Positions 12,166-63,543 of a stretch of 64,000 bases of DNA are shown here, piece by piece. Location: the UHGV virus genome UHGV-0076293, one strand, 5' to 3'. Both the position numbers and the translations under genes were made by a program. Under the pieces are notes generated by a model. It ran no database searches, had not been told where the DNA came from, and saw only the letters and a list, made by a program, of their open reading frames with translations. The DNA comes from a virus. Each line of letters opens with the position of its first letter. Position 1 is the first letter of the stretch.

Positions 12166-14451
12166 ATGAAAGATACCCGAATCTCTAATTTAGAGAAACT
12201 CGTAGAAGCCGGTACTAGTCTGGCCCAAAACGTCATCGGCAACAACACCGCCAGCGAAATGTGGAAGACGATTGTTGCAGGCGAGTCCGTACGTAGCAAC
12301 GCAAAAGTATTTGGCGCTCTGCGTGACGAAGCATCACAGCACTATGCCAACGCTTTTGGCGGCAAGAAAATGTCTCATGCTGCGACCGTCGCTTCCGCAA
12401 TGATTCTGGGCGTAGCTAACCACGGTAAAGACCTGCAAGAACGTGTTGCCCAGGAATACGCTAAGCCGGAATTCCACACCAAGTATAACCTGGATATTGG
12501 TATCCCTGGTGCGCAAGGTGGTGATTGGGGTCGTGAGCGTATGGTTGTTGCTCAGGAATACTACAGCAACAAAGACTACGACAAAAACCTGGGCCTGACC
12601 TGGACCCTGAACGTACGTGCTCTGGAAACTCAGTCCAAGTTTGCTGAAACACTGTTCCCGACCATTACCGTTGACACCAACGATGTTGGTATTACCGTAC
12701 GTACTAAAGTGACTACCGTTTCTCGCGGTATCATGAACGCGCTGCTGAGCAAAGACGTCGTTGAAGATCATCGTCGTCCGCTGCACAACGCTCTGACTGA
12801 CCACACCGTTCTCCAGGACGAAGCGATCAACATCGTTCCTTACGTAATGGAAACCGGTGAAAACCAGGAATACTTCGTAAGCGAAGATCTGGTTCCGAAC
12901 GAAACCGTTCGCCTGGGCCGTGTACCTCCGTATCCGACTAACTACCTGAGCTTTGCAAACGACACACTGAACCTGTTCCAGCTGTCTGCGCATCCGGGTA
13001 TTGTTCAGGAAGGTTACGATGAAACTGATGAAATCGCACCGGGTTGTGCTCTGGGCAGCCTGCTGATTTCTGTACGTAAACCGGCCGAAGAAGCGAAAGC
13101 GGGTAAATTCATCAAACTGCACGTTCGTGACATGCAGTTCGCAACCTTCCAGCGTCCTGCTGAAGGTGACGGCCGTGAACTGGTTCTGCAATTCCGTCGT
13201 ACCGCGTTCTCTCTGAATGCGAAAACCACTGACTGGAAAGGCGACGCTATTCCGGCACTGCAAGCACTGGGCCAGAACTCCTACACCCTGCGCTACGTTA
13301 TCACCATCACCATGTCCCTGTTCACCAGCGGCCAGTTCGGTGGTAAAGTAGACATTTCCGGCCACAAACTGGAAATCGAAGGTCTGTACGATGCAACTGG
13401 TAACAAAGTTGATACCAAGTCTGGTACCGGTAAAGTTATCCTGGACGGCCTGAAACTCGAGCTGATGGGCTGGCGCTTCGATGGTACTCGTACCAACGAA
13501 AACCGTCGTACCCAGGGTCTGCTGCTTGACCCAATTTGGGAACAGGAAAACTACAAACTGCAATACGGTTCTCCGATTCTGACCAAGTCTCCGGTTGGTG
13601 TTGAATACGACGACACTGAACGTCTGGATGACCTGATCTCTGCGGTGAACATCCGTAACGAACAGCTGGCTATTACTCAGACGCTGTCTTACACTGAAGC
13701 AGTACGTAACGCAGCCGCTGCGATGATCACTCCGTGGGACAAACCGGCTATCCGTGGTCTGGGCCGTCACTGGGTTGCTCCGTGGTTCAAAGAGTCTGAC
13801 TACAAAGTCGATGAAGTTGTTCAGTCTCTGGATACCAAAGAAGCGCTGATCAACGCTCGTCAGGGTCTGTTGCAGCGTATCGGTAGCCAGGTAACTCAGG
13901 CTATCCAGGATTCTCGTTTCATTCCTGCACTGCGCCTGCTGACTGCTGATCCGGACATTCTGCCGAAAGTTATCATCGCAACTGACGAACCGACTGCATC
14001 CATGCTGCTGCTGGTTCAGGGCGACCAACGTCTGCTGGGCGACCGTTATGAATACGAAGTCGTTACCACCAACGATGACCGCTGGCGTATCTACAACGCA
14101 GCTGACGATTCCTGGACTCGTCGTCTGCAATGGTTCCTGAAAGTTCCGACTGCGGACGATGGTTCCTACTGCGTACTGAACTGGGGTAACCACTTCTGGT
14201 CTCCGATCATGGTTACCAACATCAACATCCAGCGTAACGGTTCTACTTCTAAAGAACTGGCTGTACAGCCGCGTAACGCGCATATCTGCCACTGCCCGAT
14301 CACTGGTCTGATTTGGGTTAAAGGCATCACCAAACTGGTTGAAGAAAAACTGGCTTACAACGTTTCTGTAGAACAGAACGGCCAGAAACAAACCGAAGGT
14401 GGTGTAGCAGGTAATGTTGCTGGCGACGGTAAAGACAAAGCTGGTAAATAA
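12166..14451 (+). CDS. abundant virion protein, probable major capsid protein (761 aa)
   Basis: extreme bias to enterobacterial optimal codons (CTG, CGT, GGT, ACC, AAA, GAA); the bias leaves a 685-aa stop-free antisense frame; size fits the ~750-aa major capsid proteins of phiKZ-like phages; no motif-level confirmation possible here. Confidence 0.5.
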   Translation: MKDTRISNLEKLVEAGTSLAQNVIGNNTASEMWKTIVAGESVRSNAKVFGALRDEASQHYANAFGGKKMSHAATVASAMILGVANHGKDLQERVAQEYAKPEFHTKYNLDIGIPGAQGGDWGRERMVVAQEYYSNKDYDKNLGLTWTLNVRALETQSKFAETLFPTITVDTNDVGITVRTKVTTVSRGIMNALLSKDVVEDHRRPLHNALTDHTVLQDEAINIVPYVMETGENQEYFVSEDLVPNETVRLGRVPPYPTNYLSFANDTLNLFQLSAHPGIVQEGYDETDEIAPGCALGSLLISVRKPAEEAKAGKFIKLHVRDMQFATFQRPAEGDGRELVLQFRRTAFSLNAKTTDWKGDAIPALQALGQNSYTLRYVITITMSLFTSGQFGGKVDISGHKLEIEGLYDATGNKVDTKSGTGKVILDGLKLELMGWRFDGTRTNENRRTQGLLLDPIWEQENYKLQYGSPILTKSPVGVEYDDTERLDDLISAVNIRNEQLAITQTLSYTEAVRNAAAAMITPWDKPAIRGLGRHWVAPWFKESDYKVDEVVQSLDTKEALINARQGLLQRIGSQVTQAIQDSRFIPALRLLTADPDILPKVIIATDEPTASMLLLVQGDQRLLGDRYEYEVVTTNDDRWRIYNAADDSWTRRLQWFLKVPTADDGSYCVLNWGNHFWSPIMVTNINIQRNGSTSKELAVQPRNAHICHCPITGLIWVKGITKLVEEKLAYNVSVEQNGQKQTEGGVAGNVAGDGKDKAGK

Positions 14452-44078: not shown

Positions 44079-44272
44079 AAATTTGGTTGCCGATTGTAGT
44101 TTTTATCCTTATCGCAGGGGCACTAGCGAACGCCGAGTACGAGAGTCGTGTTTTAGAAACGAAACGCATGTTGTATCTGAATTGTATAAAGGATTATACA
44201 CCAGGCACAGAGCTTCATGCACAGGCTGTAAAAAGCTGTGCATTGATGGCTGAATCACAGACTCGCTCCTAA
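44075..44272 (+). CDS. small single-pass membrane protein (65 aa)
   Basis: N-terminal TM helix IWLPIVVFILIAGALA, ESR motif and two Cys; ATGA overlap. Confidence 0.55.
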   Translation: MKIWLPIVVFILIAGALANAEYESRVLETKRMLYLNCIKDYTPGTELHAQAVKSCALMAESQTRS

Positions 44273-44646
44273 TGCGTATCTGGACGCTACAACTTGCTAA
44301 GTGGCGGTTAGCTAAGCAGAAAGGATTTCACGCAGTGGATATTACTGTGAAGTCAGGGCGAAAGGAACTCGCCCCCGACTGGGATTTCCTAATGGCGTAT
44401 AAAGTTTCTGCCCAGGACGCTACCGCTGAACGTGAGTACACGATAAAGTATTTGTACAAACTCGAACAACTGTTAGATACTGATGCCGAAGTTTTAGTGT
44501 CGTTACTCAGGCACGATGACTTGGTTTTGATGTGTTATTGTCCCGCAGGTAAGTTTTGTCATCGTTACTTACTGGCGAACAAACTTCAAGAAGTAGGAAT
44601 GATATTCGGTATCGACGTTGAGTTATGTGGAGAATTAACCGAATGA
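44272..44646 (+). CDS. hypothetical protein with Cys-x-Cys...CHR motif (DUF488-like)
   Basis: C-terminal LMCYCPAGKFCHRYLLA resembles the conserved CHR signature of the DUF488 family; assignment from memory of the family signature. Confidence 0.35.
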   Translation: MRIWTLQLAKWRLAKQKGFHAVDITVKSGRKELAPDWDFLMAYKVSAQDATAEREYTIKYLYKLEQLLDTDAEVLVSLLRHDDLVLMCYCPAGKFCHRYLLANKLQEVGMIFGIDVELCGELTE

Positions 44647-45111: not shown

Positions 45112-45156
45112 CCTACCGCCCGATTCTATGGGCGGTAGGTGTTTTATTTTTTTTTG
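45112..45156 (+). terminator. intrinsic terminator
   Basis: CCTACCGCCC-GATTCTAT-GGGCGGTAGG followed by T9. Confidence 0.8.
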
Positions 45157-45171: not shown

Positions 45172-45735
45172 GTGGCCACATCTTACGTACCTGATTTGAG
45201 TCTGACCTCAGCAGAGCTAGTGGTCGCTTTAATCAATCATGATAACGGGTTACAGCTTACGCTAAACGAAATCCGTATTAGCGGAACCGTAACAAACCCA
45301 TCACCAACAACTTCGCGTCGTAACACCATCACCGAAATCAGTAAAATCAGAAAACCGGATGGTGCGTCTGTTGTGGTCTACTACGACAGACTTGACGCCG
45401 ATGAGGTATTAACGTCTGAACCTATTTTGATTTCGTTAGACGGTACCGAAGCGATTATCCGTGACGTTCTGAGTGTTGTAAATGAACACTGCGGTACGAA
45501 CTTACAGCCTGAAGACTTACGCGTTTCTGATATTACTTCAGGTAACGATCCTATTGCCGTTAACGTTGCCGACGATTCACCTGCGTGGATGAATGCGTTT
45601 ATGGTGACGTTATTTGATAAAACTGAGCGTGCGTTAGCGAACGAAGAAGATGAAATCTTCTGCATCGGTGACGATAGCGTTCTTACCTTTGAGGTTCCAG
45701 ATGACGACTCAGCTGAAGAAAACCCGACTACATGA
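45172..45735 (+). CDS. fibre-associated protein, paralog A1 of a four-member family
   Basis: GTG start after GGAGGG; shares PDLSLTS...NHD...YYDRLDA...CGTNLQ...CIGDDSVLTF with the gene at 51471; sits directly upstream of a tail fibre gene. Confidence 0.6.
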   Translation: MATSYVPDLSLTSAELVVALINHDNGLQLTLNEIRISGTVTNPSPTTSRRNTITEISKIRKPDGASVVVYYDRLDADEVLTSEPILISLDGTEAIIRDVLSVVNEHCGTNLQPEDLRVSDITSGNDPIAVNVADDSPAWMNAFMVTLFDKTERALANEEDEIFCIGDDSVLTFEVPDDDSAEENPTT

Positions 45736-45940
45736 ACTTGATGATTTTTACCGGTAATGGAGGACAAAGCAAACTTTTATCAAGACTTAGCAAACCAAAA
45801 TCATGAAAACGCGAAATTGAACATCGCTTTCACGTTAGAAGATGATGTATTAAAACCAGGGCAATAGTAACCCGCTTATAAAAAATTGGGGGGTAAACTA
45901 CTCTCCTGATCTTTTAGCTCCCGATAGAGAATTAAATATC

Positions 45941-48900
45941 ATGGCTAAAGCGGTAAAGAAAATTCGTTTACACGATTTACGTCCATACACCGGTGATATC
46001 GGTGAAGGCGTTTTACTTTTCTCCAAGGATGAGAAAGATTATAAGTTACCAGTCCGTGAGGTTATTGCAGATATTGACACCGTACGTAATGCGGTGGCTG
46101 ATGCACAAACAGCAGCAGCACAATCACAAGAAGCTGCAACTCAGGCTACGCAAGCAAAAGTTTTAGCAGAAGCAGCAAAACAACAAACTGACACAGTTGC
46201 GGCAACGGTTGCACAACAAGCGCAAACCGTAACCGAAAAAGCAACAGAAGTCAGTACAAAACACACCGAAGTGTTAGCCGCGAAAACGGCGGTAGACGCT
46301 CAGGCTGTGTCCATTAATGAGAAAGCACAAGCGGTAGCGACAAGTGAGGCAAACGTCACACAAGCAGAAACTACCGTTACGAAGAAAGCAGAAACTGTTG
46401 CCACACAAGCCGGGCGGGTCGAACAGTCACTTACGGCAGTTAACGAAGCTGTTGCGTCGGTAGAGTCGTCGAAAGCTGCCGTAGAAGCTAAAGCAACACA
46501 AGTTACTTCAGACAAAGAAACCGCAGAGAATGCGGCAACTCGTTCTGAGGCAGCCGCTAAGCGTGCGGAAGAAATCGTTGCTCAAGGTACTGTTGATGCA
46601 ACAACGACCAGTAAAGGTGTCGTTAAACTTAATAATACCTTAACCAGTGACTCTGTTACTGAAGCGGCTACACCGTCAACGGTTAAGCAGTTAAATGATG
46701 AATTGCAGTTAAAAGCAAACCGTCACAACCCAACTTTTACCGGTGTGGTAAAAGCACCGACTCCTGCTTCGGATTCTAACGACACGAGCGTCTCAACGAC
46801 TGCATGGGTACGGCAAGCGATTGCTGAATTAGTGGACTCTTCACCCGAGACGTTAGATACGTTATCAGAAATTGCAGCCGCGTTAGGAAACGATCCTAAC
46901 TTTGCGACAACGATAACGAACCAACTAGCGGGTAAACAGCCGTTAAGTCCGTTACTGACAGCGATTGCCGCAGTCACCACCGCTGCAAACAAACTCCCTT
47001 ACTTTACCGGTAGTAATCAGGTAGGGTTAGCGGATTTCACCTCGACTGCTCGCGAATTATTAGCGAAAGGGTCGACGGCCGATATCATCAGCTTCCTGGG
47101 GTTGAAAACCACCGTTGATAAAGCTGCGGGCGCTATGCAACGTAGTTCTAACGGTGCCGATATTCCCGATAAAGCCACCTTCGCGAAGAACATCGGGTTG
47201 TCAGCAGAGACGTACCTGAAGTTTAATGGGGAGATGCCAGTAGATGCAGACATCAACACCTTCGGCCCGGTTGAAGCGTTTATGGGCGTTTGGTCTAAAG
47301 CCACGTCTACGAACGCAACAGTTGCAAAGAATTTTCCAGAAGAAAACGCAGTTGGTTGTTTAGAAGTTTTCAAAGCGGGTAACTACAGCGGAAGTCAACG
47401 TTTTACTGTACGTAACGGTAACATCTATACACGTCATCTTACTGCTGCATGGAATGGGACAAACGGTCCTTGGTCAGAATGGCGTAATGTTGCTGGTTCC
47501 GCCAGAACGTTGAACGAACAAAATAATCTGAATGACTTGGGTGGTGAGGCCGCACTAGGTGTTTGGAGAAACAGTTCGAGTACATTAGCAACAACCGCGC
47601 TGAATTATCCTGAAGAAGGCTCTTTTGCCCAGGGCGTATTAGAAGTTCTCAAAGGTGGCAACTATAGTTACACACAACGCTACACTACCCGCAGAGGCAA
47701 TGTATACGTTCGTTGTCTACAAGCCACGTGGGACGCTTCAAACCCGCAATGGGAAGAATGGCGCTGTGTTGGTCATCAATCTGTCAGCACATATTTCGAA
47801 GGCGATCTCGACACGTTAACTTCGCCTAACCGTTATAGCATTACTGATAAAGCGACAAACGTTCCTTTAATCGACGGTACTAAAATTATCGGTATCTTGG
47901 ACGTCAGTCGTCGTTTTGATAACATTAGTGTCGAACAAAAATTCACCTCGTTTGGTTCTGGGAGCAAAACTACAGGGCGTATTTTCACACGTGTATTCTC
48001 CGGTCAATCAAACGGTAAATGGAGTGAGTGGCGAGAGGTTTTCACCTCGTATTCACTTCCGTTAGTTTTAGGTATCGGTGGGGTTGCAGCTAAGGTTGAC
48101 CCGTTAGACTGGCAAACCTACGACTTCGTTCCTGGACAGATGTTAACGACGCCGTTGAACACCATGAAAAACATTCCTGCAGGAATGGATTGGGGTACTA
48201 TTGACGGTAACTTAGTTAACATCCTTGTAGGGCCGTCTGACGACACCGGTACTGGTCGGAGTATGCTGGTTTGGCGTAGCACAGTGTCTGTTGCTAACTA
48301 TCGCTTCTTTGCGGTACGTATCGCTGGTGAGAAGGGTAGTCGTACGATTACGCCGCGTCAGATGCCTGTGTTGAACGCAGCGCACACCTGGGCAGAGAAA
48401 CAAACGTTCTCTAAAGGTTTAGCGGGTGAATTAACCGGTAATGCTTCTTCAGCAACGAAACTTCAAACAGCCCGTTTAATCGGCGGCGTAAGTTTCGACG
48501 GCACCAAGGACATTGCACTCCCTGGCGTTAACGCACAAGGTACGCAGAACACCACTGGGAATGCGGCTACCGCAACCAAATTACAAACGGCTAGAAATAT
48601 CAACGGTGTGAAATTCGATGGCTCTGGAGACATCAATATCAACACCTTAGTAGGTCGTGGACGTGTCACTGCTCTGGCTGGATCAAACAAAGGTACACCT
48701 GGTATCCAGATGTACGAGGTTTACAATAACGGTTATCCGACCGCGTATGGTAATTTACTGCATTTAGGTGGTGCTACTGCCGTAGGTGAAGGTGAACTAC
48801 TGATCGGTTGGTCTGGTACCAGTGGCGCACACGCACCTGTTTATATCCGTAGTCGTCGAGACACTACAGATGCGCCGTGGTCAGAATGGGCGCAAGTTTA

Positions 48901-50257
48901 TACTGCACGAGACAGCATTCCGGGTGTCAACACCACAGGTAATCAGGATACGACCGGAAACGCAGCTACCGCTACAAAACTTAAAACCACACGTAAAATA
49001 GGCGGGGTTAATTTTGACGGAACGGGTGATATTAACCTACCAGGTGTAAACCAGCAGGGCAACCAGAACACAACAGGTAACGCTGCGACAGCGACTAAAC
49101 TCCAGACTGCCCGAAATATTGGTGGTGTGGCTTTCGATGGTACTAAAGACATCAGTTTACCTGGGGTAAACCAAACAGGGAATCAGTCAACTACGGGGAA
49201 CGCTGCTACTGCAACGAAGTTGCAGACAGCAAGAAGTATCAACAACGTACCATTCGATGGTTCGAAAGATATTACTCTAACGCCAAGTAATATCGGTGCG
49301 GCTGCCTCCTCAATGACTTGGTTAAATACCGGGGATAATGGTGCAGCGCTTAGTACAGATTCTTTTATTACTTTGTTGCAAAATAACGGGGCTTTTAATT
49401 CCAGAACTTGGATAGCCCGATGCTCTTGGGCGTATGCTCAAAATGGCGTGATTCCAGATAGTGAAACAAAGTGCGGTACTATTCCACTTGCAGGCTCAGT
49501 TATTGAAGTTGTAAGTTTTGGGATGACCAACTACACCATTCGTATCACAACCCCTACGACGACATCGGTTAGCGGAGCAAAAACCAACTCTGAGTTTATT
49601 TATTGCTATAATGGTAAAGATTATTCTCCAGGTTGGCGACGGCAGTATAACACTGTTAATAAACCGTCTGCTAGTGACGTTGGCGCTCTACCAACTGGTG
49701 GCGGTACTGTCAGTGGCGATTTGACGGTTAATGGTAAACTGGTTACGAAAAATGCCGATTTTCGAATTGCTTACGGTAGTTACGGTTTCATTTTACGTAA
49801 CGATGGCAATAGCACCTATTTCTTAGTAACAGCATCTGGTCAAGCTGCAACGGGTTCCTGGAACAACTTACGACCGATGTACTTTAGCAATTCTACCGGT
49901 CAAGTAACCTTCGGACACAACATTACCGGTAACGGCAACGGTTCGTTTAACGACGTACAGATTCGTTCTGACCGTCGTAACAAACGTAATCTGGTGAAAC
50001 TGGATAATGCATTAGACCGTTTAGAACTCCTTACCGGGTATCTGTACGAAGTTCAACATCCTGACGATGGATGGAATACTTCGGTAGGCTTAATTGCCCA
50101 GGATGCATTAGTTGCGTTACCTGAATTGGTTACTGAAGACGATGACGCTATTTCTGGTGAAAAACGTTTACGTTTGAACTATAATGGTGTTATTGCGTTG
50201 TTGGTAGAGGGTATTAAAGACCTTCGTCGTGAGCTTAAGGAACTCAAGGGGAAATAA
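45941..50257 (+). CDS. long tail fibre, T5 pb1-like (1438 aa)
   Basis: Ala/Gln/Thr-rich coiled-coil N-terminal region; five tandem GNAATATKLQTARNIGGVxFDGTKDI repeats (phage tail-fibre repeat class); C-terminal peptidase S74-type intramolecular chaperone with SDRRNK Ser-Lys motif. Confidence 0.85.
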   Translation: MAKAVKKIRLHDLRPYTGDIGEGVLLFSKDEKDYKLPVREVIADIDTVRNAVADAQTAAAQSQEAATQATQAKVLAEAAKQQTDTVAATVAQQAQTVTEKATEVSTKHTEVLAAKTAVDAQAVSINEKAQAVATSEANVTQAETTVTKKAETVATQAGRVEQSLTAVNEAVASVESSKAAVEAKATQVTSDKETAENAATRSEAAAKRAEEIVAQGTVDATTTSKGVVKLNNTLTSDSVTEAATPSTVKQLNDELQLKANRHNPTFTGVVKAPTPASDSNDTSVSTTAWVRQAIAELVDSSPETLDTLSEIAAALGNDPNFATTITNQLAGKQPLSPLLTAIAAVTTAANKLPYFTGSNQVGLADFTSTARELLAKGSTADIISFLGLKTTVDKAAGAMQRSSNGADIPDKATFAKNIGLSAETYLKFNGEMPVDADINTFGPVEAFMGVWSKATSTNATVAKNFPEENAVGCLEVFKAGNYSGSQRFTVRNGNIYTRHLTAAWNGTNGPWSEWRNVAGSARTLNEQNNLNDLGGEAALGVWRNSSSTLATTALNYPEEGSFAQGVLEVLKGGNYSYTQRYTTRRGNVYVRCLQATWDASNPQWEEWRCVGHQSVSTYFEGDLDTLTSPNRYSITDKATNVPLIDGTKIIGILDVSRRFDNISVEQKFTSFGSGSKTTGRIFTRVFSGQSNGKWSEWREVFTSYSLPLVLGIGGVAAKVDPLDWQTYDFVPGQMLTTPLNTMKNIPAGMDWGTIDGNLVNILVGPSDDTGTGRSMLVWRSTVSVANYRFFAVRIAGEKGSRTITPRQMPVLNAAHTWAEKQTFSKGLAGELTGNASSATKLQTARLIGGVSFDGTKDIALPGVNAQGTQNTTGNAATATKLQTARNINGVKFDGSGDININTLVGRGRVTALAGSNKGTPGIQMYEVYNNGYPTAYGNLLHLGGATAVGEGELLIGWSGTSGAHAPVYIRSRRDTTDAPWSEWAQVYTARDSIPGVNTTGNQDTTGNAATATKLKTTRKIGGVNFDGTGDINLPGVNQQGNQNTTGNAATATKLQTARNIGGVAFDGTKDISLPGVNQTGNQSTTGNAATATKLQTARSINNVPFDGSKDITLTPSNIGAAASSMTWLNTGDNGAALSTDSFITLLQNNGAFNSRTWIARCSWAYAQNGVIPDSETKCGTIPLAGSVIEVVSFGMTNYTIRITTPTTTSVSGAKTNSEFIYCYNGKDYSPGWRRQYNTVNKPSASDVGALPTGGGTVSGDLTVNGKLVTKNADFRIAYGSYGFILRNDGNSTYFLVTASGQAATGSWNNLRPMYFSNSTGQVTFGHNITGNGNGSFNDVQIRSDRRNKRNLVKLDNALDRLELLTGYLYEVQHPDDGWNTSVGLIAQDALVALPELVTEDDDAISGEKRLRLNYNGVIALLVEGIKDLRRELKELKGK
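48425..49295 (+). repeat. five tandem ~37-aa tail-fibre repeats inside the fibre gene
   Basis: repeated TGNAATATKLQTAR-x-IGGV-x-FDG-x-DI-x-LPGVNQ-x-GNQ units, recoded with synonymous codons between copies. Confidence 0.8.
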
Positions 50258-50260
50258 AGG

Positions 50261-50803
50261 ATGGCAGTTGTTGAAGTTCCAGGTTATATCGGTTCTTCTG
50301 CAAAGGAAGTTACTGGCGAAGAGATGATGTCTGAAGCGATGACCGAACTCGGCGTTGTCGTACCAGGGATGATGTCTGAAATGGCAGGTCTGTCAATGGG
50401 TTGCTATGTAACGTTTGAGGAGTGGACTACCGTTGAAGATGGCCTTGATGTTCGATGGATCGGTGCGTCTACTTCCGAGTGGACAGACGGCTACGGCAAA
50501 CCGGTCGTTAAAGGAAAAATATCCGGGGCGAAGATGTTTGGTTTGAATGTCGAAGCGGAGCTGATCGGAATGCACTATAAAAAGCATCCGCGATTCCCTT
50601 GGTCAGTCGAACTAAAATGTCGCTGCGAAAAAGGTAGCAATTTCAGTTATACGTTAGACGGTGTAAGCGGTTCTGTATCGAGTGATGGTACCGGTACAAC
50701 CGGAATGCAAATTCGTACATTCAAATTTAACAATTTCAGTGCAGCATTTAAGGAAAAGATAGAGCAAGTTGGTGTCAAGATGCCAACATCACGTAAATAT
50801 TAA
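50261..50803 (+). CDS. hypothetical protein, paralog X1
   Basis: N-terminal GSSAKEVTGEEMMSEA...MMSEMAGLSMGC motif shared with the gene at 50865. Confidence 0.65.
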   Translation: MAVVEVPGYIGSSAKEVTGEEMMSEAMTELGVVVPGMMSEMAGLSMGCYVTFEEWTTVEDGLDVRWIGASTSEWTDGYGKPVVKGKISGAKMFGLNVEAELIGMHYKKHPRFPWSVELKCRCEKGSNFSYTLDGVSGSVSSDGTGTTGMQIRTFKFNNFSAAFKEKIEQVGVKMPTSRKY

Positions 50804-50815
50804 AAGAGTAGCGTA

Positions 50816-50825
50816 GGGGGGGGGG
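50816..50825. repeat. poly-G tract (G10) inside a GC hairpin
   Basis: homopolymer GGGGGGGGGG pairing with a downstream C6 run. Confidence 0.9.
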
Positions 50826-50853
50826 AGGTCACCCCCCTACGCGAATCTTAACA

Positions 50854-50862
50854 GGGGGGGGG
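50854..50862. repeat. poly-G tract (G9) forming the ribosome-binding region of the gene at 50865
   Basis: GGGGGGGGG ends 2 nt before the ATG. Confidence 0.9.
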
Positions 50863-50864
50863 TA

Positions 50865-51368
50865 ATGGCGGTTAACTCGGGTTGGGTCGGTTCTTCGGCT
50901 AAGAGCGAAACGGGCGAACAGTGGATGAGCGCTGCGGGTGCCAAATTGGGATTGGGTAAACCTTTTATGATGAGTCAAATGGTGGGACGATCTATGGGCT
51001 GTAAAATTTCAACTGCTGCATATAGTGATTCTTTAGGTAAGAAATGGGGTGCTGTGGGATCAAGTTGGCCATTAACTCAGAAAAATCAGGGAACCATTCA
51101 AAACGCGGGTAACTGCGGGGTGGGAACTTTAGTAGGTATAGAGTTACAATTAACGACGGTAGTTGCCAACGCAACGCCTACTCTAGCGGTCTATTTACAA
51201 GGCGGCAGGGCCTCTAACATCACTGCAAATCTAGGCGGTAACACTTGTGCGCTGACCTATCAGCAGGTTATTAATGGCCAACATTATTACTGGACCAATA
51301 ACATTAGTGCCGCGTTCCAAAACGTGATGAAATCGACCGGTACACTAAGAGATTTCAAAATTAGTTAA
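50865..51368 (+). CDS. hypothetical protein, paralog X2
   Basis: GSSAKSETGEQWMSAA...MMSQMVGRSMGC; flanked by poly-G tracts. Confidence 0.65.
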   Translation: MAVNSGWVGSSAKSETGEQWMSAAGAKLGLGKPFMMSQMVGRSMGCKISTAAYSDSLGKKWGAVGSSWPLTQKNQGTIQNAGNCGVGTLVGIELQLTTVVANATPTLAVYLQGGRASNITANLGGNTCALTYQQVINGQHYYWTNNISAAFQNVMKSTGTLRDFKIS

Positions 51369-51405
51369 TTATTTTTCAAACGAATGTGTTTGAAAACGTA
51401 ATCGA

Positions 51406-51415
51406 GGGGGGGGGG
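51406..51415. repeat. poly-G tract (G10)
   Basis: homopolymer about 55 nt upstream of the gene at 51471. Confidence 0.9.
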
Positions 51416-51470
51416 TGAAGTGTTTTTAGCCAACATTTTATGTCTCCCCAACCGTAGGAGGTAAATATAC

Positions 51471-51983
51471 GTGGAACAATTCACGCCAGATTTGTCGTTA
51501 ACTTCACTTAACATGGTTATTTCACTGGTTAACCATGACCTCCAACTTGACTTGCAAGAGAATGAGGTCGAAGTCAGTGACGTAAAGACCAGTGACGAAA
51601 TGGAACGTGACACCACTGCTGTTGTAAAGATAAAACGTTCTGGTAACAGAACGTTACAAATCTACTACAACCGTTTAACTGCAGAGCGGTGGTTAAACCG
51701 ACAACCTGTACTTGTAAAAGTAACAGGCGAAGGGTTTAATGCGCACGATCTAATCGAATCCATCAACACCGTTTGTGGTGCTAACTTACAAACCGACGAT
51801 TTAACCGACCAGTCGTTCACGGTGGGTAAAGACGCGGTAATATTTAGCATCGCTCCGAGTTCCCTCGGCTACAAAGGTCAGTTCTCCGTGGTGGTTTTCG
51901 GTCCAGATGAAACACCGTGTGGTATCGGTGACGATTCTGTCGTGCTAACGTTTGACAATAAAATCTTAACCTTTGGAGAGTAA
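51471..51983 (+). CDS. fibre-associated protein, paralog A2
   Basis: GTG start after AGGAGG; paralog of the gene at 45172; directly upstream of the second fibre gene. Confidence 0.6.
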   Translation: MEQFTPDLSLTSLNMVISLVNHDLQLDLQENEVEVSDVKTSDEMERDTTAVVKIKRSGNRTLQIYYNRLTAERWLNRQPVLVKVTGEGFNAHDLIESINTVCGANLQTDDLTDQSFTVGKDAVIFSIAPSSLGYKGQFSVVVFGPDETPCGIGDDSVVLTFDNKILTFGE

Positions 51984-51986
51984 TAG

Positions 51987-54119
51987 ATGAGTCAGCCAAT
52001 TGGAAAGAAGCGTATTCATGAGCTGGAAACATTTGAAGGTGAATTAGCAGGAGTCGTTCTGCTGATGTCCAAAGACGACAAAGAATATAAACTTGACGCA
52101 TCTCGTTTACAAAACGATAAGCTGTATCTAGCTTGCGGTACACCTTTTCCTAAACTAGTATTCCAAAACGATAAAACACATTACAATATTAATCCGTACA
52201 GTGACTACGACACTTATGAAGTTTCTGCAAATAAAGGTCGGGTATCTAAAGTTACTCGTGCCACATTTAGCGTGATGGCTGGGTCTTTATCGGTTGGCGA
52301 GAAAATACAACTTACAGTTACGCGCAATGGCGTACCATTTCAATTTGAAGTTACCGTATCGGGACCGCGTATCACTACTCCCACTTGGACACTTCCAGTT
52401 AATGGCGGTAAATTGAGCGTAACGCCAACCTTTGAAGTAACTGACTATCAAGCCTATCCATATACCAACACCGGTAATCAACAGACCGCTGCCAGTTGGG
52501 AAATTTCCACTAGTGAAGATTTCTCAACTACAGTTTTCCAATCACTGAACGACACCGTCAACAAAACAACCATCAGTATCCCAGAAGGTAAGTTAGAACC
52601 AGGTCAAACTTACTACGCACGTGTTCGCTTCCATAACGCAGTAACCGAAAGTGATTGGTCCGTTGTTCAATTCTCAGTCGGCGAAGCATTTATTCAGCGT
52701 CCTGCACTGATCGAACCCACCGTAGACATGGTGTTAAGCGCATCGAATATTACACTTAAAACTGATGTTTTTAAATGGGTCGGTGACGAACCTGCGGAGA
52801 CCCACGTATCGACTGACTGGCAGGTTACTTACGGTAGCAACGATTTTGACGAAATGAATAATCTCGTTAACCAATTAGAAGATGCGATTAACCTGACGTC
52901 GCTTAAATTACCGTCTGATCGGGTTTACGTTAATAACAGTTATCGTGCACGCGTGCGTTTTCGTGGTGAGAGAAGCGTCAGTGATTGGTCTGAACCTTTA
53001 ACGTTCCGTGTAAGTCGCGGGAACGTACCAACAAGTGAATTCCAGTCAATTTCTGCTTCTGGATTTACAGGTAATTCAATCGGTGCTGAGTTGGCATGTA
53101 CTGACGACGGTTTGCTGTTTGCTGCTACTGGCGTTGCACAGAAAGCGAAATTCTTACATATCTTTAAGAAAGACTTCCCGTCTTACAACAAAGTTGCCTC
53201 TTTAACAGCTGCTACTGAGGTTGACGCAGACAGAGATGGTCGCTGTCCGGTCAGTATGTCAGCCGACGGTAAGATTATTGTTGTCGGTGTTAGCGCATCT
53301 AAAGCTAACGAAGACCACGGCGAAGTTATCGTTTACCGTAACCCAGATAACGCTGAGTGGAGTACAATCAACGGAATAACTTTAGCGGGATTACCCACAG
53401 AAGGGTTCCATGGCCTTGCAGTAAAACTGTCAAAAGACGGCAATCGTTTGATTGTGGGTAACGGTACGAAAGTGCTGTCTATGTATTCCAATACCGATCA
53501 ATTTGCTACACGTACGGCTGTGTCGCCGACACTAAGTGCCGAAGACGCCACTTGTGGTGGTATTGGTAGCATTGCAATGTCTGAAGACGGTAACGGTTTA
53601 GTGCTTGGCGAAACTAACGGAACGAAATTCCACGTACTGGCTTGGGAATCGGATAGTTGGGTGTCTAAGGCATCTATTACACCAAAAGACTTGACTGAGA
53701 AAGCAACGATTAAAGTCGCTGCTTCTTCTGACTTGTCTACGATTCTTGTTTCTGTAGTTGAGACACACAAATACTACGTTTACAAGAAAACCGGTGATAG
53801 TTGGTCTCTGTTCCAAACCTTGGATTATACCGAACTGGATTACTCCATTACTTCTACCCGTTACCCGACGGGAGACATTAATGTTGCGCCTTCCGGAAGC
53901 TGGTTAATTTTCGGTATGGTGGGTTCGTTGGGTTCTATTTTCGAATTTCGTAATAGTACCTACCAACGACAAAATAGCATTTACGGCAGTAGTCTTAGCG
54001 ATCCTGAGAATTACCACTTCTATACGTCACAAGCCATCAGTGCACAAAACGATTTGTTCGTCGGTGCTGATGTTAAAGAAAGTGCTTCGTACTTCCCACA
54101 AATCAAAGTTTACATGTAA
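51987..54119 (+). CDS. second tail fibre / receptor-binding protein (710 aa)
   Basis: N-terminus KKRIHELETFEGELAGVVLLMSKDDKEYKL is homologous to the N-terminus of the 1438-aa fibre; two FN3-like units (YYARVRF...SDWS, YRARVRF...SDWS); C-terminal repeated S-x-DG-x-x-(I/L)-(V/I)-x-G beta-propeller-like blades. Confidence 0.7.
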   Translation: MSQPIGKKRIHELETFEGELAGVVLLMSKDDKEYKLDASRLQNDKLYLACGTPFPKLVFQNDKTHYNINPYSDYDTYEVSANKGRVSKVTRATFSVMAGSLSVGEKIQLTVTRNGVPFQFEVTVSGPRITTPTWTLPVNGGKLSVTPTFEVTDYQAYPYTNTGNQQTAASWEISTSEDFSTTVFQSLNDTVNKTTISIPEGKLEPGQTYYARVRFHNAVTESDWSVVQFSVGEAFIQRPALIEPTVDMVLSASNITLKTDVFKWVGDEPAETHVSTDWQVTYGSNDFDEMNNLVNQLEDAINLTSLKLPSDRVYVNNSYRARVRFRGERSVSDWSEPLTFRVSRGNVPTSEFQSISASGFTGNSIGAELACTDDGLLFAATGVAQKAKFLHIFKKDFPSYNKVASLTAATEVDADRDGRCPVSMSADGKIIVVGVSASKANEDHGEVIVYRNPDNAEWSTINGITLAGLPTEGFHGLAVKLSKDGNRLIVGNGTKVLSMYSNTDQFATRTAVSPTLSAEDATCGGIGSIAMSEDGNGLVLGETNGTKFHVLAWESDSWVSKASITPKDLTEKATIKVAASSDLSTILVSVVETHKYYVYKKTGDSWSLFQTLDYTELDYSITSTRYPTGDINVAPSGSWLIFGMVGSLGSIFEFRNSTYQRQNSIYGSSLSDPENYHFYTSQAISAQNDLFVGADVKESASYFPQIKVYM

Positions 54120-54128
54120 GGAAACGCG

Positions 54129-54689
54129 ATGAAATATGCTTATTTAAAAGACGGTAATGTGATCGACTGGAATGTTACCGAAGACATGATTGCTTTGCGT
54201 GGCCACACTGTAGATATTTATACGCCTGTAGTAGAATCTGCTAAACCGGTTGTTAACCCTGATTGTTATATCGTGTTCGAAACAACACCAAAACTGGTAA
54301 AAGGCAAGCTGGTTCAACAGTGGGTGACTGAAGCGCTGCCTAAAGAAACGGTAGTACGTAACCAGAAGGCACGTTTAGCGGAAATTCGTTATGCGAAAGA
54401 AACTGCCGGGATTACGTTTAAAGACCAAACTATTCCTACGACACGTGATGTACGTTATCAGTTAATTCAGTCTAAACACGTTGATTCTACGCAACCTATT
54501 AACTGGAAGCTAGGCGATACGTGGCTAAGTCTTACTCAGGAAGACATTGATGCGCTGCTGGTTGCAATCGCAACTTATGTTGAGAAATGCTACGCGGCAG
54601 AACGCACAGTCTCCGAGAAAATCACTAAGGTGAAAGCACCTGAAAAACTGGATGTAGAAACCTTATTTAACGACGCTTTCGCAGCGTAA
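54129..54689 (+). CDS. possible tail-fibre assembly/chaperone-like protein
   Basis: position immediately after a fibre gene; ARLAEIRYAKETAGITFKD...WKLGDTWLSLTQEDIDALL resembles tail-fibre assembly proteins; weak. Confidence 0.4.
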   Translation: MKYAYLKDGNVIDWNVTEDMIALRGHTVDIYTPVVESAKPVVNPDCYIVFETTPKLVKGKLVQQWVTEALPKETVVRNQKARLAEIRYAKETAGITFKDQTIPTTRDVRYQLIQSKHVDSTQPINWKLGDTWLSLTQEDIDALLVAIATYVEKCYAAERTVSEKITKVKAPEKLDVETLFNDAFAA

Positions 54690-54692
54690 CAC

Positions 54693-54736
54693 GGTAGCAG
54701 GGGCTTAGCCCCTGCTACCTTTTTCTTTATTTTTTC
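54693..54736 (+). terminator. intrinsic terminator
   Basis: GGTAGCAGGGGC-TTA-GCCCCTGCTACC followed by a T-rich stretch. Confidence 0.85.
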
Positions 54737-62694: not shown

Positions 62695-63543
62695 ATGTCT
62701 CTTACGTCAAAACAGAAACTGCTAAAACTCATCAACACTGAAAACAATATTAGTCCGCCGTTGACCTTCAGTGATGTTGATATCGGAGAGCCTACTGGTA
62801 CTGGGGTTGATACCCAGGTGGTTCTGACCTCTAAACTCAAAGGCGATGAGTCTACTACTTTAACAGTGACTTACCACCGTCGTAACTTACCTGACTACCT
62901 AACCGGTGAGTTGGTATTCGGTAACGACAGTGTGGTAACCGCATCAGATTTGCTTAATGCGATTAACGCAAAATACAACCTAAATATTTTACCCTCGGAT
63001 ATCGTTGACGCAAAAGTTGAAGGCGAAACCCATCAGCTTACCGCTAACGAGAAATCTTACGAGTGGTGCGGTGTAGTAACACTTACGCTGCGTGATCCTA
63101 TTGACCTGACTGAACTGTTACCAGTTACTCAATTAGAGAATCTGGTAGAGTATCCGTCCACTAAGAAAGGTAACGCTGCGGTTTATTCTCACCCGATCGA
63201 TTTCACCGCAGAAAAAGATTACCTTGACCCGATTACTATCAACGACACCGTAGACTTGGTCGAGTTAGCCGCTAAACTGGATGGCGTCGTTGACGAGAAA
63301 TGGGTAAGTGTGCCTAAGAACGCGACTAACAACCTGTACGGTGCGAAGGTTATTTACGATGGCCCAACCGCAGGTTACGAAGGCGCAAATACGAAGTTCA
63401 CTCGTGTGTTGGTGCTGACGCTCAGCCCGCTGTGTTCTAACCTGACAGGTAATCTGTTAATCCACTTTAACGGTACCGATCGTCCGAAGTCGAAGATTGA
63501 ATTAGCACAGACTAATCCGGTCTTACCGGGATTCTTAGATTAA
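62695..63543 (+). CDS. hypothetical protein, paralog B1 of the fibre-associated family
   Basis: N-terminal MSLTSKQKLLKLIN...TVTYHRRNL...SDLLNAINAKYNLNI aligns with the genes at 45172 and 51471. Confidence 0.65.
   Translation: MSLTSKQKLLKLINTENNISPPLTFSDVDIGEPTGTGVDTQVVLTSKLKGDESTTLTVTYHRRNLPDYLTGELVFGNDSVVTASDLLNAINAKYNLNILPSDIVDAKVEGETHQLTANEKSYEWCGVVTLTLRDPIDLTELLPVTQLENLVEYPSTKKGNAAVYSHPIDFTAEKDYLDPITINDTVDLVELAAKLDGVVDEKWVSVPKNATNNLYGAKVIYDGPTAGYEGANTKFTRVLVLTLSPLCSNLTGNLLIHFNGTDRPKSKIELAQTNPVLPGFLD

What the first reader, a model, noticed from the sequence alone, without database searches (positions are those of the whole stretch)
52300..54119. Fibre 2 combines FN3-like domains with a beta-propeller-like distal domain
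Two units with the pattern YYARVRF...SDWS and YRARVRF...SDWS resemble fibronectin type III domains. The C-terminal 350 aa contain repeated S-x-DG-x-x-(I/L)-(V/I)-x-G blades (SADGKIIVVGV, SKDGNRLIVGN, SEDGNGLVLGE), typical of beta-propeller carbohydrate- or protein-binding domains. This is a different receptor-binding solution from fibre 1.
Basis: partly seen in the sequence, partly recalled or inferred. Interest (0 to 1): 0.35.

Follow-up and report, generated by a model that had tools for sequence, protein, structure and literature searches.

The report
Jumbo-phage tail fibre with propeller tip
This gene encodes a second tail fibre of an uncultured phiKZ-like jumbo phage, with a shared docking peptide, two fibronectin-III-like domains and a seven-bladed integrin-type (FG-GAP-like) beta-propeller at its tip; the fold calls are sound, but receptor binding is only inferred.

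Summary

**Domain order:**
- N-terminal anchor, residues 1-45, shared with fibre 1 and with a small tail-fibre protein of Erwinia and Salmonella jumbo phages.
- Small beta domain, residues 63-126.
- Two homologous ~100-aa FN3-like modules.
- A 366-aa C-terminal domain.

**The C-terminal domain is a propeller.** AlphaFold2 models it confidently (pLDDT 83, pTM 0.87) as a closed seven-bladed beta-propeller. Its sequence relatives are bacterial and viral FG-GAP_2 repeat proteins, the integrin-alpha type. It does not reach the Pfam FG-GAP_2 model itself.

**Context supports a tail fibre.** The gene sits in a repeated cassette of DUF7941 protein, fibre and DUF4376 protein. DUF4376 is the Tfa-type tail-fibre chaperone domain.

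**Distribution.** The propeller has no match in 50,697 GenBank phage records or in PHROGs. Eighteen full-length orthologues (68-100% identity) exist in metagenomes.

**Closest analogue.** phiKZ gp131 also carries a seven-bladed propeller at a fibre tip, but is not detectably homologous.

**Caveat.** The propeller is the most conserved part of the protein (dN/dS 0.09-0.19), which is unusual for a receptor-binding tip.

**Verdict:** a new variant of a known kind, of moderate interest. Binding function is inferred only.

The parts
51987..54119 (+). Fibre 2 gene, 710 aa plus stop codon
   Evidence: ORF list. SD GGAGAG lies 8 nt upstream of the ATG, and the ATG is 4 nt after the stop of the upstream ORF. 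There are 18 full-length orthologues at 68-100% identity. Whole-gene dN/dS is 0.10-0.16.
51987..52121 (+). N-terminal anchor, residues 1-45 (MxxxxKKxR[LIV]H[ED]L...GVLLxSKDxKEYKL)
   Evidence: 44% identical to the fibre 1 N-terminus, E=3e-7. Also present in Asesino gp140, Salmonella SPFM4_00110 and a 273-aa ORF of L003. An HMM scan of the six-frame window finds it only in fibres 1 and 2.
52173..52364 (+). Small all-beta domain, residues 63-126
   Evidence: Five beta strands in the full-length model, pLDDT 56-74. The same domain precedes the FN3-like modules in distant homologues P0019-P0023. No Pfam match.
52365..52688 (+). FN3-like module 1, residues 127-234 (...SWEISTSEDFS...YYARVRF...SDWS)
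   Evidence: PF25788 Ig_Rha78A_N scores 27.9 bits (cut-off 27.4). fn3, PhoD_N and Ig_J_second are sub-threshold. Seven strands in the model. Module HMM E=1e-37.
52689..53018 (+). FN3-like module 2, residues 235-344 (...THVSTDWQV...YRARVRF...SDWS)
   Evidence: Homologous to module 1, E=1.3e-9. Seven strands in the model. A profile of 19 module copies hits only FN3 domains in the PDB, E=0.003-0.1.
53019..54116 (+). Seven-bladed FG-GAP_2-like beta-propeller, residues 345-710
   Evidence: AF2 pLDDT 83, pTM 0.87. There are 7 blades of 4 strands, and strand 351-356 closes blade 7. Foldseek against the PDB finds 7-bladed propellers at TMq 0.58-0.67, and BFVD reaches 0.79. phmmer finds 919 relatives, and all 10 of those sampled carry PF14312.
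51471..51983 (+). DUF7941 virion-structural-protein gene immediately upstream (170 aa, GTG start)
   Evidence: PF25613 E=1.4e-13, and phrog_2935 'virion structural protein'. A paralogue at 45172-45735 precedes fibre 1, and a third lies at 62695-63543. The order is conserved in L003, L004 and L007.
54129..54689 (+). DUF4376 (Tfa-type) putative fibre-2 chaperone, 186 aa
   Evidence: PF14301 E=2.4e-12, and phrog_10508. It starts 9 nt after the fibre 2 stop. It is always adjacent in relatives. DUF4376 proteins encoded downstream of fibre genes are tail-fibre chaperones (PMC7882524, PMC7289586, PMC10579305).
54693..54729 (+). Terminator-like hairpin with T-run that closes the fibre operon
   Evidence: 12-bp stem with 9 GC pairs, followed by TTTTTCTTT.
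45941..50257 (+). Fibre 1 (context): 1438 aa, same N-terminal anchor, different distal part
   Evidence: Gp34_trimer, Phage_fiber_2 and Peptidase_S74 domains. Followed by two gp38-N adhesin-like ORFs at 50261-50803 and 50865-51368.

Best explanation
Window 51987-54119 encodes a second tail fibre (receptor-binding-type protein) of an uncultured phiKZ-like (SPN3US/Asesino-related) jumbo phage.

**Proposed mechanism.**
- Residues 1-45 are a docking peptide. It plugs the protein into the same kind of baseplate site that fibre 1 uses, and that the small 'tail fiber protein' of Asesino and SPN3US-type phages uses.
- A small beta domain and two FN3-like beta-sandwiches form a short beads-on-a-string stalk.
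- The distal 366 aa fold into a closed seven-bladed, FG-GAP_2 (integrin-alpha-like) beta-propeller that contacts a host surface ligand.
- The DUF4376 protein encoded 9 nt downstream is the cognate Tfa-type chaperone or cap for the distal domain.
- The DUF7941 protein encoded just upstream is a virion partner.

**Shown:** gene, domain boundaries, folds, homologies, synteny, purifying selection.

**Inferred:** virion location, oligomeric state, ligand binding, chaperone dependence.
For: **Phage identity.** The window is a chimallivirus: a 761-aa major capsid protein about 80% identical to Erwinia phiEaH2/Asesino and Salmonella SPFM phages.

**Anchor.** It is shared with fibre 1 (E=3e-7), with Asesino gp140 (annotated 'tail fiber protein') and with Salmonella SPFM4_00110.

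**Propeller.**
- AF2 pLDDT 83, pTM 0.87, seven four-stranded blades with velcro closure.
- 1,493 PDB Foldseek hits at E<=1e-3, topped by seven-bladed propellers.
- BFVD hits at TMq up to 0.79, including 'FG-GAP repeat [uncultured Caudovirales phage]'.
- 919 phmmer relatives. All 10 sampled carry PF14312 FG-GAP_2.
- The joint profile hits integrin alpha propellers at 1e-13.

**FN3-like modules:**

**Same architecture elsewhere.** The small beta domain, FN3-like module and FG-GAP_2 propeller occur together in P0023, next to tail-protein genes of an unrelated phage contig.

**Gene neighbourhood.** The DUF7941-fibre-DUF4376 cassette is conserved, tightly spaced and closed by a terminator. DUF4376 proteins are experimentally required fibre chaperones (PMC7289586, PMC7882524).

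**Evolution.** Fibre 2 is 69% identical between phages whose flanking genes are 92-96% identical, as expected of a host-range cassette. dN/dS is 0.09-0.19.

**Precedent.** phiKZ gp131 carries a seven-bladed propeller at the distal end of its fibres (PMC13250141).
Against: - No experiment or proteome places this protein in a virion.
- The propeller is the most conserved domain: 77% identity between clades against 59-63% for the proximal domains. Variation is no higher in any loop class, and there is no hypervariable face. Receptor-binding tips are usually the most variable part.
- The Pfam FG-GAP_2 model itself does not match the protein at E<=1.
- FN3 membership is sub-threshold (14.9 bits against a cut-off of 25), and hhalign against one tenascin FN3 gave probability 1.6%.
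- The full-length model is poor: pLDDT 58.6, with the N-terminal 62 residues below 40.
- Trimerisation, which Tfa-type chaperones normally assist, is not evident for a stalk built of Ig-like beads.
Confidence: 0.62

Rival explanations
1. The propeller is an enzyme rather than a passive binder. It would be a surface-polysaccharide depolymerase, esterase or lactonase-type hydrolase, making the protein a tailspike-like processing device.
For: - Many beta-propellers are enzymes, and the phiKZ literature notes this for gp131 (PMC13250141, PMC4901313).
- BFVD hits include 'Lactonase, 7-bladed beta propeller'.
- High conservation with low dN/dS fits a catalytic domain.
- The syntenic position in Asesino and SPFM4 holds a 1000-aa 'tail protein' after the anchor protein.
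Against: - All sequence relatives are FG-GAP_2 repeat proteins. To my knowledge no catalytic activity is known for that family, which consists of adhesion and scaffold proteins.
- The best structural matches are non-enzymatic WD40 and integrin-type propellers.
- No enzyme family was found in Pfam or PHROGs.
Confidence: 0.12
2. It is a virion or baseplate accessory or decoration protein, not the host-receptor binder. Its Ig/FN3-like domains and propeller would give weak, generic adhesion (for example to mucus or environmental glycans) or act as a structural brace.
For: - Ig/FN3-like domains on phage surfaces often mediate non-specific adherence (general knowledge).
- The propeller is conserved rather than hypervariable.
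- Fibre 1 with its gp38-like adhesins already supplies a classical specificity device.
Against: - The protein carries the same docking peptide as fibre 1.
- It has a dedicated Tfa-type chaperone gene.
- As a whole gene it diverges far more than its neighbours, 69% against 92-96%. That is typical of host-range genes and not of structural braces.
Confidence: 0.16
3. It is not a virion component. It would be a secreted or cell-surface protein made during infection, for example for superinfection exclusion or host-envelope modification, that merely sits among tail genes.
For: There is no direct virion evidence. FG-GAP_2 relatives in bacteria are often secreted surface proteins, for example with Por_Secre_tail domains.
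Against: - There is no signal peptide-like N-terminus. Instead the N-terminus is the conserved fibre anchor.
- The gene is embedded between a virion-structural-protein gene and a fibre-chaperone gene, in a single unit bounded by terminators.
Confidence: 0.04

Closest known systems
phiKZ gp131 (C-terminal domain, PDB 4GBF) and its paralogues gp133-135
   Same: It is a fibre protein of a phiKZ-like jumbo phage with a seven-bladed beta-propeller at the distal end, proposed but not proven to mediate host binding. It belongs to a cluster of paralogous fibre genes (PMC13250141, PMC4901313).
   Different: - There is no detectable sequence similarity.
- gp131 shows only a weak RCC1-like signal, not FG-GAP_2.
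- gp131 has its own large N-terminal domain that forms a hetero-hexameric base. Fibre 2 instead uses a 45-aa anchor plus FN3-like modules.
- phiKZ gp131-135 do not match DUF7941.
FG-GAP_2 (PF14312) / integrin alpha-type seven-bladed propellers, including bacterial surface proteins and giant-virus FG-GAP proteins
   Same: - The blade motif is the same: G-x-S-V-x-L-S-x-DG-x-x-L-x-VG ... W.
- Direct phmmer matches reach 1e-27, and all 10 sampled hits carry PF14312.
- The joint profile hits integrin alpha-4, alpha-M and alpha-6 propellers.
- A conserved D-A-[DEN]-R-D-G loop resembles the integrin Ca2+ loop.
   Different: - The Pfam model does not reach the protein.
- Identity to any relative outside its own orthologue cluster is about 30% or less.
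- The context is a phage tail fibre rather than a cell-surface adhesin.
- Ca2+ or ligand binding is untested.
Staphylococcus phage phi11 RBP Gp45 and PRD1 P2 (propeller-containing receptor-binding proteins)
   Same: These are phage receptor-binding proteins that present a beta-propeller to the host surface. In phi11 a cavity in the propeller is modelled to bind GlcNAc of wall teichoic acid (PMC4901313).
   Different: They have five-bladed propellers of unrelated sequence. phi11 Gp45 has a coiled-coil stem and a C-terminal tower. The host and virion type also differ.
Asesino gp140 / SPFM4_00110 (Phi92_gp140-like small 'tail fiber protein') plus the downstream 1000-aa tail protein
   Same: The N-terminal 45-aa anchor is the same, and so is the position directly after a DUF7941 gene.
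   Different: In those phages the anchor protein is only about 155 aa and is followed by a separate 1000-aa protein. Here the anchor is fused to FN3-like modules and a propeller, and the 1000-aa gene is absent.
Tfa-type fibre/chaperone pairs (Mu S/U, Alteromonas V22 gp26/gp27, Campylobacter CJIE1 H-fibre)
   Same: The fibre gene is followed at once by a DUF4376 gene. In that gene the N-terminal half is more variable (74-77% identity) than the DUF4376 half (86-87%) (PMC7882524, PMC7289586, PMC10579305).
   Different: Those fibres end in trimeric knob or beta-helix tips, not in a propeller. Chaperone dependence is untested here.

Membership tests
Seven-bladed beta-propeller fold | Seven four-stranded antiparallel sheets arranged radially in one closed domain | tested here: met
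   AF2 model of residues 345-710 has pLDDT 83 and pTM 0.87, with 27 strands grouping into 7 blades. Foldseek top hits are WDR5, G-beta, RACK1 and ATG16L1 WD40 domains (TMq 0.58-0.67, TMt up to 0.79). This is a prediction, not a solved structure.
Seven-bladed beta-propeller fold | Ring closure ('velcro') by an N-terminal strand joining the last blade | tested here: met
   In the model, strand 351-356 pairs with the three C-terminal strands 676-709.
Seven-bladed beta-propeller fold | Sequence repeat with blade-length periodicity | tested here: met
   Seven motif copies spaced 45-57 aa apart align in register. None of 20,000 shuffles reached 3 copies of the strict motif.
Pfam FG-GAP_2 (PF14312) | Match to the Pfam model at or above its gathering score | tested here: not met
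   There is no PF14312 hit at E<=1. Only Beta-prop_EML_2 (E=1.9e-4, 21 bits against a cut-off of 90) and Vps41 propeller matched, both sub-threshold.
Pfam FG-GAP_2 (PF14312) | Significant direct sequence similarity to bona fide family members | tested here: met
   phmmer of residues 345-710 gave 58 hits at E<=1e-10, the best non-orthologue at 1.5e-27. All 10 sampled hits match PF14312 above its cut-off, with E from 1e-137 to 1e-4. P0023, which has the same overall architecture, matches PF14312 at 3.7e-32.
Pfam FG-GAP_2 (PF14312) | Relationship to integrin alpha propellers | tested here: inconclusive
   The A2 profile hits integrin alpha-4, alpha-M and alpha-6 at 1e-13 to 1e-12. However, 44 of the 59 rows are the FG-GAP_2 relatives, so the signal may come from them.
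Fibronectin type III (PF00041) / FN3-like beta-sandwich | Match to the fn3 model at its gathering score | tested here: not met
   fn3 scores E=0.031, 14.9 bits against a cut-off of 25.
Fibronectin type III (PF00041) / FN3-like beta-sandwich | Match to a related Ig/FN3-like family | tested here: met
   PF25788 Ig_Rha78A_N scores E=3e-6, 27.9 bits against a cut-off of 27.4, which is marginal. Homologues carry precomputed PF16655, PF16656 and PF00041 hits.
Fibronectin type III (PF00041) / FN3-like beta-sandwich | A domain of about 100 aa forming a seven-stranded beta-sandwich | tested here: inconclusive
   Each module has seven strands in the full-length model, but pLDDT is only 50-86. The module profile hits only FN3 domains in the PDB (cytokine receptor beta-c, IFNAR1, Tie2, titin) at E=0.003-0.1.
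Phage tail fibre / receptor-binding protein | Encoded within the tail-fibre gene cluster and shares an attachment module with another fibre | tested here: met
   It lies 1.7 kb downstream of fibre 1, within a stretch bounded by two terminator-like hairpins. The N-terminal 36 aa are 44% identical to fibre 1, and the anchor HMM scores E of about 1e-24 to 1e-27.
Phage tail fibre / receptor-binding protein | Cognate assembly chaperone encoded directly downstream | tested here: met
   A DUF4376 ORF lies 9 nt downstream and is conserved in L003, L004 and L007. Its function is inferred from PMC7882524 and PMC7289586.
Phage tail fibre / receptor-binding protein | Present in virions and binds a host receptor | not testable with these tools
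   This needs virion proteomics, cryo-EM and binding or adsorption assays.
phiKZ gp131 family | Sequence homology to gp131 (N-terminal domain or C-terminal propeller) | tested here: not met
   BLASTP of residues 345-710 against phiKZ gp131 gives a best E of 2.3. 4GBF is absent from the sequence-profile PDB hits and from the top 50 Foldseek hits.

The most novel reading that the evidence does not exclude
An integrin-type (FG-GAP_2) seven-bladed propeller serves as the receptor-binding tip of a dedicated second tail fibre in a lineage of nucleus-forming jumbo phages, and a Tfa-type DUF4376 chaperone folds or caps it. This would be the first FG-GAP propeller receptor-binding protein described in a bacteriophage. 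It would also be an independent, convergent counterpart of the phiKZ gp131 propeller. Its unusually conserved tip would point to a conserved host ligand, such as LPS core or a conserved outer-membrane protein.
Probability: 0.45. Interest if true: 0.5.

Novelty: new variant of a known kind. Interest (0 to 1): 0.38.

Why it matters
Host recognition by phiKZ-like jumbo phages is poorly understood. Even for phiKZ the role of the gp131 propeller is inferred only from low-resolution density.

This locus shows a modular system. A 45-aa docking peptide is reused on different distal devices:
- a T4-like long fibre with gp38-type adhesins;
- an FN3 plus FG-GAP propeller fibre;
- in relatives, a 155-aa or 273-aa protein.

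Each device sits in a DUF7941-fibre-(DUF4376) cassette.

If the propeller is the binder, three things follow. It would add a new domain family to the phage receptor-binding repertoire. It would give a second, independent example of propeller-tipped fibres in chimalliviruses. It would also offer a compact, probably soluble domain for host-range engineering or diagnostics. The anchor peptide could likewise be used to graft new receptor-binding modules onto SPN3US-type phages.

Tried and rejected
- **GenBank phages.** megablast and tblastn of the whole protein against 50,697 phage records gave no match. The propeller alone at E<=0.1 also gave no match. The FN3 region gave only marginal cyanophage hits, E>=3e-3.
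- **IMG/VR.** A scan with the orthologue alignment found no relative.
- **PDB by sequence.** phmmer of the whole protein gave nothing meaningful.
- **PHROGs.** The propeller alone matched 0 families.
- **phiKZ gp131 homology.** Tested and rejected: BLASTP best E was 2.3, and gp131-135 have no DUF7941 match.
- **DUF7941 against the PDB.** This was a search for the phiKZ atlas chains, and there was no significant hit.
- **FN3 by hhalign.** The FN3-like profile against a single tenascin FN3 sequence was uninformative, probability 1.6%.
- **Full-length AF2 model.** Too weak to use for fold search (pLDDT 58.6). I therefore re-modelled the C-terminal domain with a deeper alignment.
- **Hypervariable face on the propeller.** I looked by loop class and found none.
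- **Literature.** A search for FG-GAP propellers in phage tail fibres found none in the held library. It returned only giant-virus reports.
Full report
**1. What is at the coordinates**

The finding (52300-54119) lies inside a single ORF, window 51987-54119 on the + strand, 710 aa.
- The ATG is preceded by GGAGAG and comes 4 nt after the stop of the upstream ORF. The next ORF starts 9 nt after its stop.
YYARVRF is at 209-215 and YRARVRF at 319-325, each followed by SDWS. The three S-x-DG-x-x-(I/L)-(V/I)-x-G blades are at 425, 482 and 532.
- The strict blade pattern occurs three times. None of 20,000 shuffles of the protein reached three copies.
- Four degenerate copies complete a series of seven, spaced 45-57 aa apart, which align in register.
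The gene starts 313 nt upstream of the reported start.

**2. The genome around it**

- The window belongs to a phiKZ-like (chimallivirus) jumbo phage. It has a 761-aa major capsid protein about 80% identical to those of Erwinia phages phiEaH2 and Asesino and Salmonella SPFM/Seoulvirus phages.
- At the DNA level it is new. 20 kb of the window gave only a 66-nt megablast hit.
- Eighteen full-length orthologues of the protein (68-100% identity) exist in metagenome assemblies, some on contigs of about 226 kb.
- There is no match in 50,697 GenBank phage records by megablast or tblastn. The propeller alone has none even at E<=0.1. None was found in IMG/VR, and the propeller has no PHROG family.

**3. 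Domain anatomy**

*(a) Anchor, residues 1-45.*
- They are 44% identical to the N-terminus of fibre 1 (E=3e-7).
- They match the N-termini of Asesino gp140 (a 154-aa 'tail fiber protein'), of Salmonella SPFM4_00110, and of a 273-aa ORF in the related contig L003.
- An HMM of this peptide finds only fibres 1 and 2 in the six-frame window.
- I read it as a reusable docking module. That reading is an inference.

*(b) Small all-beta domain, residues 63-126.* The same domain precedes the next module in the distant homologues P0019-P0023.

*(c) Two FN3-like modules, residues 127-234 and 235-344.*
- They are homologous to each other (E=1.3e-9). They belong to a ~100-aa module that is tandemly repeated up to seven times in distant metagenomic proteins.
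- Pfam gives PF25788 Ig_Rha78A_N just above its cut-off (27.9 against 27.4 bits). It gives sub-threshold fn3, PhoD_N and Ig_J_second.
- A profile of 19 module copies hits only FN3 domains in the PDB, weakly (E=0.003-0.1). The Y-x-x-R-V-R...S-x-W-S segment aligns to the F-G strands and WSxWS region of cytokine-receptor FN3 domains.
- The full-length AF2 model shows seven strands per module at pLDDT 50-86.
- So 'FN3-like beta-sandwich' is reasonable. Formal membership of Pfam fn3 is not met.

*(d) Propeller, residues 345-710.*
- I modelled the domain with a 59-sequence alignment. It gives pLDDT 83 and pTM 0.87. There are seven four-stranded blades, and strand 351-356 closes the seventh.
- Foldseek against the PDB returns 1,493 hits at E<=1e-3, led by seven-bladed WD40-type propellers.
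- Foldseek against BFVD gives better matches (TMq up to 0.79). These are to giant-virus proteins and to 'FG-GAP repeat [uncultured Caudovirales phage]'.

**4. Which propeller family**

- An exhaustive phmmer search of 1.84 billion cluster representatives found 919 relatives at E<=1e-3. Only one, its own orthologue cluster, scored below 1e-30. The rest are about 30% identical multi-repeat proteins.
- All ten that I sampled carry Pfam FG-GAP_2.
- The joint profile hits integrin alpha propellers at 1e-13. That profile is dominated by the FG-GAP_2 relatives, so this is weaker evidence.
- Blade 4 (GGIGSIAMSEDGNGLVLGETNGTKFHVLAWESDSW) fits the repeat consensus of the A2 alignment of FG-GAP_2 relatives (GxSVxLSxDGxxxxVG...W).
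- The Pfam model itself does not reach the protein. It is therefore a divergent relative of the family, not a model-defined member.
- An invariant loop, D-A-[D/E/N]-R-D-G-R-C-P (413-421), recalls the integrin DxDxDG calcium loop. I did not test this.

**5. Evidence that it is a fibre**

- The gene sits in a repeated cassette.
  - DUF7941 genes ('virion structural protein' PHROGs) lie immediately upstream of fibre 1 (45172-45735) and of fibre 2 (51471-51983). A third is at 62695-63543.
  - A DUF4376 gene follows fibre 2.
  - A strong terminator-like hairpin at 54693-54719 follows the DUF4376 gene. Another lies upstream at 45112-45139.
- The order is conserved in three related contigs.
- DUF4376 is the conserved C-terminal domain of Tfa-type tail-fibre chaperones (Mu U, Alteromonas V22 gp27, Campylobacter CJIE1). 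These are encoded directly after the fibre gene and are needed for functional receptor-binding proteins (PMC7882524, PMC7289586, PMC10579305).
- Here the chaperone's N-terminal half is more variable (74-77% identity) than the DUF4376 half (86-87%). That fits the published Tfa architecture.
- The distant homologue P0023 has the same small-beta, FN3-like and FG-GAP_2 architecture. It lies next to tail-protein genes on an unrelated phage-like contig. Two others, P0020 and P0021, keep the stalk but replace the tip with DUF1566. This shows modular tip exchange.

**6. Evolution**

- Between this window and contig L003 the flanking genes are 92-96% identical at the protein level. Fibre 2 is only 69%, fibre 1 is 83% and DUF4376 is 82%.
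- Synonymous sites are saturated between the two allele clades. The cassette has therefore been exchanged or has diverged for a long time, as host-range genes do.
- Within the protein the gradient is unusual. The propeller is the most conserved domain, at 77% between clades against 59-63% for the anchor, small domain and FN3-1.
- Propeller dN/dS is 0.09-0.19, and no loop class or face is enriched in variable sites.
- This argues for a conserved ligand, or for a non-specificity role. It is the main reason my confidence in 'receptor-binding tip' is moderate.

**7. Comparison with known systems**

- The nearest functional analogue is phiKZ gp131. Its C-terminal domain is a seven-bladed propeller (PDB 4GBF). 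[quoted passage not shown]
- Fibre 2 is not homologous to it. BLASTP gives a best E of 2.3. gp131 shows a weak RCC1-like signal rather than FG-GAP_2. gp131-135 do not match DUF7941.
- Two chimallivirus lineages thus appear to have put different propeller families at fibre tips.
- Other propeller receptor-binding proteins, phi11 Gp45 and PRD1 P2, are five-bladed and unrelated (PMC4901313).
- In the held literature I found no FG-GAP propeller described in a phage tail fibre. FG-GAP proteins are discussed only for giant viruses.

**8. Verdict**

- The functional reading, a carbohydrate- or protein-binding receptor domain, remains an inference. Context supports it; the conservation pattern tempers it.
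- The rivals are an enzymatic propeller (0.12), an accessory or decoration role (0.16) and a non-virion protein (0.04).
- I rate it a new variant of a known kind, a propeller-tipped phage fibre, with moderate interest (0.38).

Noticed in passing
window 45172-54729: The whole fibre region looks like one unit bracketed by two strong terminator-like hairpins (45112-45139 and 54693-54719). It is built from a repeated cassette of a DUF7941 gene followed by a fibre gene that carries the same 45-aa N-terminal anchor. A third, full-length DUF7941 gene (282 aa) lies at 62695-63543.
   Followed up: partly
window 50261-50803 and 50865-51368: Two tandem gp38-N-type adhesin-like ORFs follow fibre 1. Related contigs carry only one (L007), or one plus a 273-aa anchor-bearing ORF and an extra DUF4376 gene (L003). 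The adhesin set is therefore variable between close relatives. The second ORF is 61-63% identical to the tail-fibre adhesins of E. coli and Shigella Stx phages, which suggests an Escherichia-like host.
   Followed up: partly
window 51406-51415 (and 45888-45893): A run of ten G lies in the 102-nt gap between the second adhesin ORF and the DUF7941 gene upstream of fibre 2. A shorter G6 run lies upstream of fibre 1. These could be slippage-prone tracts or promoter-region elements. I did not investigate them.
   Followed up: no
L001 9527-12995 (Erwinia phage Asesino gp140-gp141); L002 9528-13022 (Salmonella SPFM4): In cultured relatives the position of fibre 2 is taken by a ~155-aa protein with the same N-terminal anchor, followed by a 1000-aa 'tail protein' with no Pfam match. 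The anchor thus seems to be a general adaptor, used either fused or as a separate small protein.
   Followed up: partly
window 53223-53249 (residues 413-421 of fibre 2): A nearly invariant loop, D-A-[D/E/N]-R-D-G-R-C-P, sits between blades 1 and 2 and resembles the integrin DxDxDG calcium-binding loop. Three invariant cysteines (C371, C420, C523) are also present in the propeller.
   Followed up: no
window 12334-14391 (-): A 685-aa ORF with a TTG start runs antisense through the major capsid protein gene (12166-14451). It is most likely a chance open frame and not a gene.
   Followed up: no
window 44272-44646: A 124-aa ORF matches DUF488-N3a (E=1.2e-11) just upstream of the fibre cluster. It is conserved in the related contig L007.
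   Followed up: no
P0020, P0021 (metagenomic homologues): Distant homologues keep the small beta domain and two FN3-like modules but end in a DUF1566 (PF07603) domain instead of the propeller. This shows that the distal tip of this stalk type is exchangeable.
   Followed up: partly
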